DNA of 64,000 bases from Podarcis vaucheri (Eukaryota): NCBI GenBank assembly GCA_965113315.1, contig OZ220368.1. One strand, written 5' to 3'. Below are positions 42,984 through 51,900 of this stretch, in pieces. Made by a program: the position numbers. Each line of letters opens with the position of its first letter. Position 1 is the stretch's first letter.

Positions 42984-45900
42984 GTAGAATCTTTGAATGT
43001 ACACCATTCCTTGCACAAACCAATCTGCACCTGTGTAAAATGTAAACACTTGCACCAGGCCACCCCTTAACATCTCTGATTTCATGCCCCTTGGGTGAGC
43101 TGGCAGTGCCATCTCAGAAGAAAGAAAATTAAGGGAAAGGATCTCAGAAAGTATAAATCAGCATCAGCTTCAACTGGCTTAGAACACCTGTCTCCAAAAG
43201 TTCCCCCTGCAGGAAAACAGAAGGCAAGAGAAACTAACCAATATTAGTGAGTGGTGCCTTTCCAACCAATGGCATGGAGAGAGCAGGAGGGGAAGGCAGC
43301 TCAGACTGATCATCTGATTCCTGCAATCCTCCAATCGTGTGGGAGTGCCGCCTCTCCTTGGCCTCTTCCTGGGACTGGATTTGATACCTGCCAAAATTAA
43401 GGGAGAGAGAAGTAGAACAAGGAAGACTGGAGGAATTTTGTAGCTGTAAAACAACTGTGGTGGCTTAAGCTTAACATCACTCATGTAGCCAGTTCCCGAG
43501 GTCATAGTAAGCGAAATTCTAAATTTCACTGGGGAGCACCTAATTGTATAGCAATGGTGATGCTAAGAAAGTGTGGATTACTCAGTGCTAATAAAGGTAA
43601 TCAGAGCTTTTGAAAGCAGATTGCCATCCAAGGTACTCTTTCCAAAGGACATGAGAAAAAATAGATAAACCAAGGCCACAGCTCTTTGAACATTTAGTTT
43701 AGGATTAAAGGTAAAGGTAAAGGTACCCCTGCCCAAACGGGCCAGTCTTGCCAGACTCTGGGGTTTGTGCGCCCATCTCACATTTATTGGCCGGGGGCCA
43801 GCGCTGTCCGGAGACACTTCCGGGTCACGTGGCCAGCGTGACAACGCTGCTCTGGCGAGCCAGAGCCGCACACGGAACGCCGTTTACCTTCCCGCTGGTA
43901 AGCGGTACCTATTTATCTACTTGCCCCCGGGGGTGCTTTCGAACTGCTAGGTTGGCAGGCGCTGGGACCGAGCAGCGGGAGTGCACCCCGCCGCGGGGAT
44001 TCGAACCGCCGACCTTTCGATCGGCAAGCCCTAGGCGCTGAGGCTTTAGCCCGCAGCGCCACCCGCGTCCCTAGTTTAGGATTAAGTCTCATTAAATCTT
44101 GGGCCTTACTTCAGAGGAAACCTGTTCAGGCTTGGACTTCAGTGCATGCATTCACCCCGTAAGTATTTGAACACAGCTACAAAAAGTCAATGGAAGCCAT
44201 ATCATGGAAGCTGTTTATATACTGTCCAATTTATTATGCCCTCTAGAACATGGCCAGTTAACAGCAAATGCTACCATACTATAAAGTTCTGCAGAGTATT
44301 TCATTCTGGTGAACATAATTTATTAACTGAGGACTTTAAACAGGATTCACCTAATGAGCCCTGCCAGAAGAAGCCCTCTGCAAGGACTTCTGCTTGCTCA
44401 ACAAGGCTTCCTCTACACTTCTGAAATTGTTTCATTTTCGGGGGGGGGGGGCAGAAAAGTGCACAGGGGGAGGAGAGAGAGGATCATTCCATCTGGCAAG
44501 TTGAAATGCTTGTGCATACAGAACATTCATCATACCGCAATAATAAAATGCTTTTTTTTTTAAAAAAAAAAGACACCACAACGACCATTATAAACAAAAA
44601 TAAATAATAACTTCAATATTGTTCACAGCAAACGGCTCCCAGGATAGTTTGTGCTCCACATACAGTAGTTGGGAAAGCTGTGCCTAGCCTTCCTATATAC
44701 AATCTTGCAAAGGACCAAGAAGCGAGAGATGTAACCAGATCCCTAGACTGGTTTGCTTTGAACAGAAACAGGGTGGGCTGCTTTTATGAACCACCATGGT
44801 TAATTGATTTTCTTTGGGATCTTACTCTGTAGCATGTAGAATATTAAGTACCCTGTTTAAGAGGATGATAAACAGCATGCTCAAAATAACATAGAGTGTT
44901 GGTTTGCGAGGAACACCGAGATTTCTTCAACTGGTCATCTTGTGTTAGTATGACCACAGTGAAAAGCAGGTTTCGTCTACTGCAACATCATACTGTATGC
45001 CATGCCCACTAATTTATTTGACCATCAGTTGATAGCAACAGGAAAGTGAGGGGTGGGGTAGAAGGACGATTACCTTAGGCCCTTCTTGGGCAATGTATTC
45101 CGATCACGGTTAGAGCTGCAGGAAGGGAAGCAAGCACAACAGTATTTGTTAATCATTTGCTGGAGTCCAGCTGTAGCATCTGATGGGCGATAAACTGGTT
45201 TATGAAGTTTTGGGAATGCAGAGCATTATCTGGCTTAGTTTAGAAGAATGGAGTTAGAACTCCATGGACATGAAGCTAGAACTCCACCATGGGCAAGAAC
45301 AACGAACTGCAACATTATGCTGGAGTTTGAATAAAGATTTTCCACTGCACTGCAATTCCACTGCTCTGCTTCCACTTCCCCAACTGCCTTCCTTGTTGCT
45401 CTGCAATACTTTAACTGCAGGGAATAGGAATTGCTTCACAGAGAACCAACCATGTTTCCAAAAAAGCCCCATCCCCTTTAGCCTGGGGATCATGCCATCA
45501 AACAAAAGCTTCCCCACTTTCTTCTACCTGTCCAGGTGTGTGATCCTGGGGCTCCCCGTCCAGGACATCTCACTGGGTTCCTCCTCAGCAGCCACAACGG
45601 GAGGGGTGGGAGCAGTGGTGGGAGCAGTTGTATTGCCTGCAGAGAAGGGGCTGTGCAGGCTCATAGGCATCTGCAAGGACTCCATGCTCCTGTGCAACCC
45701 TGAGAGCTTGGGGTACATGCGGGATTCCTTGGGGATGCTGAAGCCTCCCATGAGCTCCAGGCCCTGGGAGAAGCTAGCAGAGTTTATGTTAAGGACTGGA
45801 GCAGGGCTTGGCGTGAAGCACGACGTGAGGTGGGGTCCCACGTTTGCTGCAGCTGGGTGGGATTCGTGCAGTTTGCCACCGTGCATCTGGTGTTCGCTGG

Positions 45901-48900: not shown

Positions 48901-51900
48901 CCAGCTGAAACACACAGGAGGCAACAATGGTTAATAATAGTCCATAAAAAGTATAAAATCCAATTAAATATCCACACAGCAGCAGTCAAATCTTAGGCAA
49001 TATTGCCAGTTCAAAGAAGATGCTTTGTTTGTTTATTTAAATATTTATACATCACACTTTAATAAAAATACAAGAAGACAGTATTGATGACTACCCGAGA
49101 GTGCATACTTTGATACACAATTTGTCACAGATTTATTGCTCCCTAGCACCTTGGGACGCGGGTGGCGCTGTGGGTTAAAGCCTCAGCGCCTAGGGCTTGC
49201 CGATCGAAAGGTCGGCGGTTCGAATCCCCGCGGCGGGGTGCGCTCCCGCTGCTCGGTCCCAGCGCCTGCCAACCTAGCAGTTCGAAAGCACCCCGGGGGC
49301 AAGTAGATAAATAGGTACCGCTTACCAGCGGGAAGGTAAACGGCGTTCCGTGTGCGGCTCTGGCTCGCCAGAGCAGCGTTGTCACGCTGGCCACGTGACC
49401 CGGAAGTGTCTTCGGACAGCGCTGGCCCCCGGCCAATAGATGTGAGATGGGCGCACAAACCCCAGAGTCTGTCAAGACTGGCCCGTTCGGGCAGGGGTAC
49501 CTTTACCTTTACCTTTAGCACCCTAATAATCCTTTCTTACAACCAAGTTGGTCAAAGTGTGGTTAAAGGATGGGTTTTTGCCATATTTCCAGTGCATACT
49601 TATAAGTGAAGCAAGGATCTTTTAATTTCCACATCCCTCCCCCCCACCCCAGCTACTGTGTGTGAGAGAGCGAGAGCGAGAGAGAGCGCATGCGCATGTG
49701 TAGTACAGTCCTAGCAGTTTTAGCTGCTAGGACTAGGCTTGCTTGAGAACAAAAGCTCAGGATAGTTTACTCTTGTCATGTGGATTGTCACTTCAGAATA
49801 CTATATTCATATACATTAACATACATTGTAAAAACCAATCCAAAAATCAGTGTGTATTTTGCAAAGTGCTCAGATGCAGAAACTGAGGTGTTCAGCTCAG
49901 CTGCATCTTGGAACAAGATAGAGCTGGAAAAGAGTGTTGGTCATAAACAGTCGGACCTTGGGGCATCCCAGAAGGAGACTCGGGGTCAAAGTAAGAATGA
50001 GGAATGGTTGCCAACCCTCTCACATGGGACAGGGGTCCAGGAACACCATGAACAGGAAGAAGCTTCTTTCCTATGTGGAGGGTCTGTGAGGAGCAGGTGC
50101 ATGGGGGAAGGAGGAAGAACACTGTGTATTTTTTTATTTAAAAAAGTAAAATAAAATACTTCTTTCATGTCATCTGGCACTTTGCACTCAAGAATAGTGT
50201 AGACCATTTCAAATAATGATAGAACCATATCTGATAGGCAGTTCCAGTGTCTAAGAATTTCCTTAGGGGGATCCTTTGTACAAAGGTGCCGTAAGCAACA
50301 ATGGTTGCCAAGCAAGGAACCTTATTTAGCATGGCAATTTGGAAGAAATCAAACTATCTGATCACTACAGAAGACTTTGCAGCCCTACTAATCAGTTCTA
50401 CGTGAACAATTGTCACAAATTTCATAAAATAATCCAGTTTTCCTGCTTTATTCCAGCCTTGCTGCTAGCACGTAGTTGGATGAGCAGCTTGCCAGACAAA
50501 CCGTGTAAGCCACCCAGTAAATATAAGTGAGCAGGACTTGTACAAATTTGTTGCAAGCTACTAAATGTTTTGCACATATAGTTGCTTCACTTTGAACCCA
50601 GTAGCTGAAGCTTTCTAGAAGATGGAGATTATTTTTATTTTTAGCAAGGAGTAATCTGGTAGAAATTGAAAGGTGGGGTTAAGTGACAGACAGTAACAGA
50701 ACCAGAATGTGCTATAACTGGAACCATTGGCAGAGAGAAGCAGCCACATAGGGAACAAAAGTTCAGTGCCTTCACCAACATGGAACATTTTTGTAGATCT
50801 TGCTTGGATGCATTCTAACACATGACAATCATGAGGACTAGAACACTGTTTATAATGAAAGTATTTTTGAGAATACTTGCCACATATGAGATTTTGCATC
50901 AGATGCAGAAACCCCAAAATGTGAATAGTCCAGGTTATCTACTAAGTGACCCCTAGTCTGTTGTCAGTCCTCTTATAAATGCCCAAATGAGCTCTCATTA
51001 ACACAGGATCTGTGTTAGCTGCAGCTAATTCAGCAGCCAGCGGGAAAGGGTCTAGTTAAAAATGTCCAAAATGCCTTCCTTTGTACTGCAGAGGGTGCTA
51101 TTGAGAGTAGAACAGCATCTCAGCCTGCGTATATTGCACCTGATTACTTTACACGTCTAGCACCAGCCAAGGAACTAGGAAAAAGAGAGAGCAAAGTCTT
51201 TCCCCAAGATAGGTGTTGAAGCAGGAGACTGGCAGATGCTAATCCAGGCATTACCGAATGTCTACATTGTGACATTTATTGTGAGCTGCTGCCAATGTCA
51301 GCCAACAGCCAGGCTGTAAAGTGCACCACAGGGAGATCATTTAAGAAAGCAGAAGAGATTGGCTTAGTTTTGAATGGCACAGTTACTATCAGTCCTTAGC
51401 ACCTGATGGTATGGAGAATTTCTAGAGAGAAGGTGGGCTTGTTGTTCTTTTTGTTACTGGCTCTGAGATGGCTCAGTTGGTAGAGCATGAGACTCTTAAT
51501 CTCCGGGTCATAGGTTTGAGCCCCACGTTGGGCAAAATACTTGCTGGAGGTTGGACTAGATGGTCCTCATGGTCCCAATGCTGTAATTCTATGTTATGTA
51601 TTTTTCTGTTTTTATTTTGTAACCCACCCTGTGATCATTGGATGAAAGACAGCAGAGAAAAGAAAAGAAAAGAAAGATCTGAGAACCCAAGAGTGTTTGT
51701 GGAATGTCTGGATGTTAAGGCAAGAGAGTGTGAGCCAGAACCGAGTGAGCGCTGTTATCTCCTCACCCTTGCCCCTCCATCTTAGCTCTGCTGAGCTTGC
51801 CCAAATAGAGCAGCCTTCATTCTCCAGGCAAGGGGGCAGGATTTCCACCCTTCATGGCACCAGCCCCAGCCTGCATCATTCCCTTGCTCGCTTCAGCCTC

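What the first reader, a model, noticed from the sequence alone, without database searches (positions are those of the whole stretch)
43709..49515. Inverted young SINE pair brackets five NAV1 exons: predicted circRNA with an endless ORF
Seen: the SINE at 49153-49515 (+) sits about 250 nt upstream of the 48904 acceptor, and the SINE at 43709-44071 (-) sits about 1 kb downstream of the 45074 donor. They are reverse complements with about 8 differences over about 360 nt, so the pre-mRNA can form a long duplex. The enclosed exons total 139+298+691+456+42 = 1626 nt = 542 codons, and the back-splice junction CTA AG|C TGG (Leu-Ser-Trp) keeps frame with no stop. Circles closing at 46775 (1128 nt) or 45528 (1584 nt) are also stop-free multiples of three, and internal ATGs exist. 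Skipping the block would also be in frame. Established: inverted intronic repeats (Alu-type) promote back-splicing and ADAR editing. Inference: a recent lizard-specific SINE pair could create or boost a circNAV1 capable of rolling-circle translation of the SxIP-containing region.
Basis: partly seen in the sequence, partly recalled or inferred. Interest (0 to 1): 0.72.

Follow-up and report, generated by a model that had tools for sequence, protein, structure and literature searches.

The report
Inverted SINE pair around NAV1 exons
Two nearly identical copies of a very common lizard jumping element sit in opposite orientation on either side of five exons of the wall-lizard NAV1 gene, a layout known to favour circular RNA, but it is ordinary for this genome and nothing here shows that a circle is made or translated.

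Summary
An inverted repeat of about 369 nt (43706-44074 and 49150-49517; 8 substitutions and 1 gap) brackets five canonical minus-strand exons totalling 1626 nt. They have no in-frame stop, exon by exon, and carry 12 in-frame ATGs. The gene is NAV1 of a Podarcis wall lizard.

The repeats are independent insertions of the Squam1/Sauria SINE, each with its own target-site duplication. That family has about 10^5 copies in Podarcis.

It is equally complementary to the upstream copy and offers a larger alternative circle. There is also an old copy at 55908-56282.

The "endless ORF" is arithmetic. Any circle made of internal coding exons whose length is a multiple of three is stop-free, and 6 of the 15 contiguous blocks of these five exons qualify. 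In a human dataset 14% of circRNAs have such host-frame ORFs.

Inverted young transposons flanking exons are the textbook circRNA architecture, and a published comparison of five mammals reads most resulting circles as splicing noise. Duplex strength is a poor predictor of circularisation.

No RNA data and no other lizard genome could be consulted. Back-splicing, editing, lineage specificity and translation therefore all remain untested. This is a sound but ordinary prediction.

The parts
49150..49517 (+). Young Squam1/Sauria SINE, sense on the + strand and therefore antisense in the NAV1 pre-mRNA. It lies 246 nt upstream of the 48904 acceptor.
   Evidence: It has an (ACCTTT)n tail and a TSD TAGCACC(T/C)T. 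CpG observed/expected is 0.96.
43706..44074 (-). Young Squam1/Sauria SINE, sense in the NAV1 pre-mRNA. It lies 1000 nt downstream of the 45074 donor and 317 nt upstream of the next exon (43389).
   Evidence: The TSD is (TTA)ATCCTAAACTA, 11-14 bp. CpG observed/expected is 0.92.
31347..31712 (-). Third young copy in the same orientation as the 43706 copy, in the intron between exons ending at 32101 and starting at 30992. It is an alternative pairing partner of the upstream copy.
   Evidence: It is 98.4% identical to the 43706 copy and 98.1% complementary to the 49150 copy. The TSD is TATTTCCTGACATT. The duplex with the upstream copy is -847.3 kcal/mol.
55908..56282 (+). Old, diverged copy of the same SINE family in the upstream intron, in the same orientation as the 49150 copy.
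   Evidence: It is 77-78% identical to the young copies. CpG observed/expected is 0.55.
48766..48904 (-). NAV1 exon A (139 nt). It is the first exon shared by the long and short isoforms.
47866..48163 (-). NAV1 exon B (298 nt).
46775..47465 (-). NAV1 exon C (691 nt). It holds the only [ST]x[IL]P match of the four exon translations scanned (A-D): SSIP.
45528..45983 (-). NAV1 exon D (456 nt).
45074..45115 (-). NAV1 exon E (42 nt). Its donor is the predicted back-splice donor.
48905..64000 (-). Upstream intron, more than 15.1 kb within the window. No NAV1 exon was detected in it.
   Evidence: tblastn with the long (P0010) and short (P0006, P0025) isoforms found nothing upstream of 48927; 48927 itself is only the 8-codon intronic overhang of the P0029 alignment to exon A.
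43240..43389 (-). Next NAV1 exon downstream. It defines a 1684-nt downstream intron (45073-43390).

Best explanation
Three independent, recent insertions of the Squam1 (Sauria) SINE lie in introns of Podarcis NAV1, alongside one old copy. This family is tRNA-headed, mobilised by Bov-B LINEs and very abundant.

Shown: one copy is antisense and 246 nt upstream of exon A. One is sense and 1 kb downstream of exon E. On paper the pre-mRNA can therefore form a duplex of about 359 bp that loops out a compact five-exon block, and that block follows an intron of more than 15 kb.

Inferred: the most likely consequence is the ordinary one for such architecture. The intronic double-stranded RNA is probably A-to-I edited, and a low-abundance, lineage-restricted circNAV1 (48904/45074 junction) arises as a by-product of splicing. 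It would not be selected and would have no coding role. The stop-free frame of the circle is an arithmetic consequence of its being made of in-frame coding exons.
For: - Repeat and independent TSDs.
- Family features: the (ACCTTT)n tail and T-initial TSDs match what PMC13295347 (passages) reports for Sauria SINEs. PMC10670947 (passages) equates Squam1 with Sauria.
- Abundance: PMC10670947 counts 130,894 and 129,109 copies in two P. muralis assemblies. It finds 31,580 + 19,914 loci present in only one of P. muralis and P. raffonei (split about 12 MYA) against 50,016 shared.
- Youth: an estimated 1.5-4.5 private substitutions per copy (three-point estimate from the pairwise counts) and CpG observed/expected of 0.92-0.96 against 0.55 in the old copy.
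- Duplex: 359 pairs, longest perfect helix 169 bp, -835.9 kcal/mol against about -160 for each arm folded alone.
- No other inverted repeat of 80 nt or more brackets exons in the window. Six of the 8 repeat pairs found belong to this family.
- The layout fits circRNA-forming loci: all splice sites canonical, internal introns of 400-791 nt, upstream intron over 15 kb.
- NAV1 is a circRNA host in mammals. An RNase R-resistant circNAV1 with a sequenced junction exists in mouse and human fibroblasts (PMC10690640 passages), and hsa_circ_0002869 is listed in PMC9437624 (passage).
- Young species-specific TEs drive circRNAs, which are largely noise (PMC8516420 abstract and Discussion).
Against: - No RNA evidence was available, so the circle may not exist at all.
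- Hairpin stability is not an adequate predictor of circularisation, and strengthening or lengthening repeats sometimes strongly inhibits it (PMC4201285 passages).
- In the ZKSCAN1 minigene a cryptic 5' splice site in the upstream intron repressed circularisation more than eightfold (same paper). Here the antisense SINE tail supplies two AAG|GTAAAG motifs at 49515 and 49509.
- The third copy (31347-31712) and any copies in the unseen part of the upstream intron could compete for pairing.
- The family assignment rests on tail, length, TSDs and host, not on alignment to a consensus. ARAGORN and Rfam did not recognise the tRNA-like head.
Confidence: 0.6

Rival explanations
1. The SINE pair creates or boosts a circNAV1 that ribosomes translate round and round. 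The product would be concatemers of the 542-residue Ser/Pro-rich, SxIP-containing NAV1 segment, with a biological effect.
For: - The circle is 1626 nt (542 codons) with no in-frame stop, exon by exon, and has 12 in-frame ATGs and one SSIP motif.
- Rolling-circle translation of stop-free circles works on reporters and for three human circRNAs expressed from plasmids (PMC9242994 passages).
Against: - The stop-free frame is expected by arithmetic: 6 of the 15 blocks here qualify, and 14% of human circRNAs do (PMC9242994).
- No initiation element was tested or shown.
- Rolling-circle products of two of the three tested circRNAs were rapidly degraded by the proteasome (PMC9242994 passages).
- Young TE-driven circles are mostly low-level noise (PMC8516420).
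- No RNA or peptide data exist.
Confidence: 0.03
2. The pair has no effect on splicing. The duplex does not form, or it is unwound or hyper-edited. The introns are removed normally and only linear NAV1 mRNA results.
For: - Thermodynamic stability does not predict circularisation, and long or strong repeats can inhibit it (PMC4201285 passages).
- Editing and related defences act against TE dimers (PMC8516420 Discussion).
- The family is so abundant (PMC10670947) that most inverted pairs must be inert.
Against: - The arms lie close to both splice sites (246 and 1000 nt).
- There is no competing inverted repeat within either flanking intron as far as the window shows.
- The upstream intron is long, and NAV1 forms circles in mammals (PMC10690640, PMC9437624).
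Confidence: 0.3
3. The looped-out block is mainly skipped in linear mRNA. The in-frame loss of 542 residues would give a NAV1 isoform without the SxIP region.
For: The block is 1626 nt, a multiple of three, and the phases at both ends match. Linking exon skipping with circle formation is recalled general knowledge, not a call.
Against: I saw no such isoform, but I did not check isoform composition. The protein lengths (1922-1945 aa for long lacertid forms, about 1366-1483 for short ones) do not by themselves point to a 542-residue loss. Predicted isoforms are a weak test.
Confidence: 0.05
4. The repeat is an inverted segmental duplication or an assembly artefact rather than two transposon insertions.
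For: Only the very high identity (97.6%).
Against: - Similarity stops within 3 nt of the SINE ends.
- Each copy has its own different TSD.
- A third copy with a third TSD and an old copy exist.
- The window has no N.
Confidence: 0.01

Closest known systems
Alu-pair-flanked exonic circRNA loci (ZKSCAN1, HIPK3, EPHB4; Liang and Wilusz 2014, PMC4201285)
   Same: Inverted SINEs sit in the two introns immediately flanking the circularised exons. They are close to canonical splice sites, and base pairing brings the donor and acceptor together.
   Different: Here the repeats are a tRNA-headed, Bov-B-dependent reptile SINE rather than 7SL-derived Alu. The duplex is far longer and more perfect (359 bp) than the 30-40 nt shown to suffice. 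No circle has been observed.
The young, species-specific TE model of circRNA origin (Gruhl et al. 2021, PMC8516420)
   Same: Recently active, lineage-restricted TEs lie in the flanking introns of a long, exon-rich gene. The circle is predicted to be young and probably non-functional.
   Different: That work covers five mammals. I found no lizard circRNA study: searches returned only incidental hits among the titles listed, and one search returned none.
Mammalian circNAV1 (mouse and human cardiac fibroblasts, PMC10690640; hsa_circ_0002869, PMC9437624)
   Same: The host gene is the same. The mammalian circle is RNase R-resistant and its back-splice junction was sequenced. The listed human circle spans 5.9 kb of genomic DNA, against 3.8 kb here.
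   Different: I do not know its exon composition, which is in figures and supplements I could not see. It cannot depend on a squamate SINE. I looked up no human sequence.
Rolling-circle ORF circRNAs (circPSAP, circPFAS, circABHD12; Fan et al. 2022, PMC9242994)
   Same: The circle length is a multiple of three, the host reading frame is kept and there is no stop codon.
   Different: Those have junction peptides in mass-spectrometry data and reporter validation. Here there is none. The unit here (542 aa) is much larger than those (10-22 kDa).

Membership tests
Squam1 / Sauria SINE | 3' end made of (ACCTTT)n | tested here: met
   All three young copies end in ACCTTTACCTTTACCTTTA. The feature is taken from PMC13295347 (passages).
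Squam1 / Sauria SINE | Short target-site duplications beginning with T | tested here: met
   The TSDs are TATTTCCTGACATT, (TTA)ATCCTAAACTA and TAGCACC(T/C)T. The first base of the second is ambiguous because it overlaps the tail.
Squam1 / Sauria SINE | tRNA-derived 5' head with a pol III promoter | tested here: inconclusive
   GGTTCGAATCC is visible; that it matches the B-box consensus is recalled, not tested. ARAGORN found 0 genes. Rfam found 0 matches at the gathering score and 0 at E<=1.
Squam1 / Sauria SINE | Sequence similarity to the family consensus | not testable with these tools
   The consensus is in supplementary data of PMC10670947, which are closed. No repeat library was available.
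Squam1 / Sauria SINE | High copy number with young copies in lacertids | tested here: met
   There are 4 copies in 64 kb. The literature gives about 130,000 copies in P. muralis (PMC10670947 passages).
Inverted-repeat-driven exonic circRNA locus | Reverse-complementary repeats in both introns that immediately flank the block | tested here: met
Inverted-repeat-driven exonic circRNA locus | Canonical acceptor and donor at the predicted back-splice sites | tested here: met
   TTTCAG|C at 48904 and AAG|GTAATC at 45074.
Inverted-repeat-driven exonic circRNA locus | No stronger competing pairing within a single flanking intron | tested here: inconclusive
   None was found within the window. The upstream intron continues beyond base 64000, and a third copy offers an alternative cross-exon pairing.
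Inverted-repeat-driven exonic circRNA locus | Back-splice junction reads and RNase R resistance | not testable with these tools
   No transcriptome data were available.
Rolling-circle-translated circRNA (rcORF) | Circle length a multiple of three with no in-frame stop | tested here: met
   1626 nt and 0 stops, followed exon by exon. The exons were not joined.
Rolling-circle-translated circRNA (rcORF) | Cap-independent initiation element (IRES-like or m6A) | not tested
   No predictor was available. In-frame ATGs exist (12).
Rolling-circle-translated circRNA (rcORF) | Junction-spanning peptide or ribosome footprints | not testable with these tools
   No proteome or Ribo-seq data were available.
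NAV1 orthologue | Exon translations match annotated NAV1 of close relatives, in order and on one strand | tested here: met
   Exon C is 100% identical to NAV1 of P. muralis, P. lilfordi and P. raffonei. There are 24 collinear tblastn segments covering residues 471-1945.

The most novel reading that the evidence does not exclude
A Podarcis-lineage SINE pair has created a new, abundant neuronal circNAV1. Its 1626-nt stop-free frame is translated in rolling-circle fashion into concatemers of the EB-binding (SxIP) region. These would act as a lineage-specific modulator of microtubule plus-end tracking.
Probability: 0.02. Interest if true: 0.7.

Novelty: new member of a known kind. Interest (0 to 1): 0.2.

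Why it matters
If the circle exists, it would be a clean natural test of the idea that young transposons create circRNAs, carried out beyond the five mammals compared in that study. Podarcis species differ at tens of thousands of Squam1 loci, so presence/absence comparisons are possible. That value lies in the family-wide system rather than in this locus, which is one of probably thousands of similar pairs. The coding claim adds little, because stop-free circles are common by arithmetic.

Tried and rejected
- ARAGORN on the window and Rfam at the gathering score and at E<=1 on the SINE found no tRNA or other RNA family, so the tRNA-like head stays unconfirmed by a model.
- I searched for the alternative first exon of the short NAV1 isoforms in 48905-64000. 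It was not found and is presumably upstream of the window.
- I tried to resolve the Podarcis species from protein identity. Four Podarcis NAV1 proteins gave 1475-1478 of 1649 aligned residues identical, against 1468 for Zootoca and Lacerta. The species is not resolved.
- Literature searches for a lizard circRNA study, a Podarcis circRNA or a Squam1-circRNA link gave only incidental hits among the listed titles, or none.
- The exon composition of mammalian circNAV1 is not in the text held. Figures and supplements were not visible.
- Segmental duplication or assembly artefact was rejected on the TSDs.
I followed the frame exon by exon and read the split codons from the sequence.
- Structure, complex and atlas tools were not used. 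The encoded segment is an annotated NAV1 region and no binding claim is made.
- Presence or absence of these insertions in other lacertids was not checked, because no eukaryotic genome collection was on hand. The closed metagenome and viral collections would not have helped.
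Full report
**Observation.** The inverted repeat is real. The repeat finder gives two abutting arm pairs: 43706-43932/49291-49517 (227 nt, 98%) and 43925-44074/49150-49299 (150 nt, 97%). They are offset by one base, so they form a single repeat of about 369 nt with one indel. 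blastn gives 97.56% over 369 columns, and a global alignment gives 8 substitutions and 1 gap column. The window contains no N.

**Exons.** Their lengths are 139, 298, 691, 456 and 42 nt, total 1626. Each has an AG acceptor behind a pyrimidine tract and a GT donor.

I followed the frame exon by exon. The 46+99+229+151+13 full codons contain no stop and 12 ATGs. The split codons read are G|GT, AG|G and AG|C, and the back-splice codon AG|C is serine. Circles closing at 46775 (1128 nt) or 45528 (1584 nt) have the same AG|C junction.

**Gene.** The translation of exon C (229 aa) is 100% identical to NAV1 of Podarcis muralis, P. lilfordi and P. raffonei, and 98-99% identical to Zootoca and Lacerta. 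That search found 1369 proteins at E<=0.001 among 5310 candidates, of which 120 were listed. A P. muralis NAV1 of 1945 aa maps collinearly on the minus strand from residue 471 (48903) to the stop (19246) in 24 segments. The Podarcis species cannot be resolved from the protein.

No NAV1 exon lies between 48905 and 64000. Short isoforms (P0006, P0025) splice a conserved 22-residue alternative first exon directly to 48904, and that exon is not in the window either. Exon A is therefore the first exon common to all isoforms. It follows an intron of more than 15.1 kb. The internal introns are 602, 400, 791 and 412 nt, and the downstream intron is 1684 nt, with the next exon at 43389-43240. A compact exon cluster behind a long intron is a typical circRNA-forming layout; that typicality is recalled general knowledge.

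**What the repeats are.** An alignment of the copies with their flanks shows that similarity ends at the element borders. Each copy has its own target-site duplication: (TTA)ATCCTAAACTA for 43706-44074, TAGCACC(T/C)T for 49150-49517 and TATTTCCTGACATT for a third copy. They are independent retrotranspositions, not a segmental inversion.

All copies end in (ACCTTT)n and their TSDs start with T. These are the signatures reported for Sauria SINEs, the Bov-B LINE partners of squamates (PMC13295347, passages). PMC10670947 (passages) states that Squam1 is the same family as Sauria. I could not align the copies to a consensus, because it is in closed supplements. ARAGORN and Rfam do not recognise the head. 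A GGTTCGAATCC motif is visible; its match to the B-box consensus is recalled.

The copies are young. A three-point estimate from the pairwise counts gives about 1.5-4.5 private substitutions per copy. CpG observed/expected is 0.92-0.96, against 0.55 in the old copy.

blastn of one copy against the window and a self-comparison of the window find two more copies.
- A third young copy lies at 31347-31712. It has the same orientation as the 43706 copy and is 98.1% complementary to the upstream copy.
- An old copy lies at 55908-56282 in the upstream intron. It is 77-78% identical and has the orientation of the upstream copy.

Four of the six possible pairs are thus inverted, and all four bracket exon A. 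The upstream copy pairs as well with the distant copy (-847.3 kcal/mol) as with the near one (-835.9). Shuffled controls give -241.3 +/- 7.6 (20 shuffles), and each arm folded alone gives about -160. The near duplex has 359 pairs with a longest perfect helix of 169 bp. Pairing with the third copy would enclose the five exons and at least eight more, down to the donor near 32101. Proximity and the order of transcription favour the near pair; that is inference. No other inverted repeat of 80 nt or more brackets exons in the window: 6 of the 8 repeat pairs found are this family.

**Is it more than chance?** The sequence match is. The arrangement is not. PMC10670947 (passages, Table 1) counts 130,894 and 129,109 Squam1 copies in two P. 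muralis assemblies and 107,217 in P. raffonei. PMC13295347 lists P. muralis with 1511, which I take to be genome size in Mb. By my division that is about one copy per 11.5 kb, and the window has one per 16 kb.

Between P. muralis and P. raffonei (split about 12 MYA, per that paper), 31,580 and 19,914 loci are present in only one species, against 50,016 shared. Young insertions are therefore commonplace. Two independent insertions are inverted half the time. Many such pairs around exons must exist in this genome; that is inference, not a count.

**The endless ORF.** A circle made only of internal coding exons keeps the host frame and has no stop whenever its length is a multiple of three. The five exon lengths are 1, 1, 1, 0 and 0 modulo 3. 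So 6 of the 15 contiguous blocks qualify: A-C, A-D, A-E, D, D-E and E. In a human full-length circRNA set, 14% have host-frame rolling-circle ORFs, and the ratio of finite to endless ORFs is about 3.4 (PMC9242994, passages).

That paper shows rolling-circle translation from reporters and from three plasmid-expressed human circRNAs. It also shows rapid proteasomal loss of the products of two of them. Nothing at this locus bears on initiation. The block does contain one [ST]x[IL]P motif (SSIP, exon C). That NAV1 binds EB proteins through such motifs is recalled knowledge.

**Mechanism and its limits.** Base pairing of inverted intronic repeats brings the splice sites together, and 30-40 nt suffice (PMC4201285, passages). 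The same paper reports three limits. Thermodynamic stability is not an adequate predictor. Strengthening or lengthening the hairpin sometimes strongly inhibits circularisation. A cryptic 5' splice site in the upstream intron repressed the ZKSCAN1 circle more than eightfold.

Here the antisense tail of the upstream SINE reads AAG|GTAAAG twice (49515 and 49509). This gives consensus-like donors about 600 nt upstream of the acceptor, although they would be buried if the duplex forms.

Gruhl et al. (PMC8516420, abstract and Discussion) conclude from five mammals that circRNA loci are associated with young, species-specific TEs. They conclude that many circles arose convergently and that most are mis-splicing noise. 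They treat the link with editing as secondary to defence against TEs.

NAV1 is a circRNA host in mammals. An RNase R-resistant circNAV1 with a sequenced junction exists in mouse and human cardiac fibroblasts (PMC10690640, passages), and hsa_circ_0002869 spans 5.9 kb of NAV1 (PMC9437624, passage). I could not learn which exons those circles contain, and I looked up no human sequence.

**Verdict.** The anatomy is confirmed and extended. The coding argument is arithmetic, and no data on RNA, editing, orthologous insertion state or translation could be consulted. I put about 0.4-0.5 on any detectable 45074->48904 junction in deep brain data and about 0.02-0.03 on functional rolling-circle translation; both are judgement. 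No lizard circRNA study surfaced: searches gave only incidental hits among the titles listed, and one search gave none. The finding is a new but ordinary member of a known kind.

Noticed in passing
window 49501-49517 (minus strand): The antisense (ACCTTT)n tail of the upstream SINE reads AAG|GTAAAG twice in the NAV1 pre-mRNA. These are consensus-like 5' splice sites about 600 nt upstream of the 48904 acceptor. A cryptic donor in that position repressed circularisation in the ZKSCAN1 minigene (PMC4201285).
   Followed up: partly
window 43783-43788 (minus strand): The sense-oriented SINE carries AATAAA through a private G>A change; the other two young copies have AATAGA. It is a possible intronic poly(A) hexamer, one of nine AATAAA in 43600-49600.
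   Followed up: no
window 31347-31712: A third young SINE copy lies in a downstream NAV1 intron. It is 98.1% complementary to the upstream copy and so allows a much larger alternative circle (48904 to about 32101).
   Followed up: partly
window 55908-56282: An old copy of the same SINE family (77-78% identity, CpG observed/expected 0.55) has a different head segment with a 10-nt insertion. It belongs to an older subfamily.
   Followed up: no
window 58416-58551; 28550-28634 and 58431-58514: There is a local palindrome (86.8% over 136 nt). One of its arms also matches a direct repeat at 28550-28634 (80%). This is probably another small repeat family.
   Followed up: no
window 48904 and upstream: Short NAV1 isoforms of Podarcis and Eublepharis (P0006, P0025) start with a conserved 22-residue alternative first exon spliced to 48904. 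That exon is not in the window, so an internal promoter lies more than 15 kb upstream.
   Followed up: partly
window 42929-42980: A perfect (GA)26 microsatellite lies in the intron just upstream of the exon at 42836.
   Followed up: no
protein P0005: A predicted Apteryx NAV1 scores higher (622 bits, 85% identity) than the 100% identical Podarcis proteins (about 460 bits). This suggests that the segment occurs more than once in that predicted protein, possibly a model or assembly artefact.
   Followed up: no
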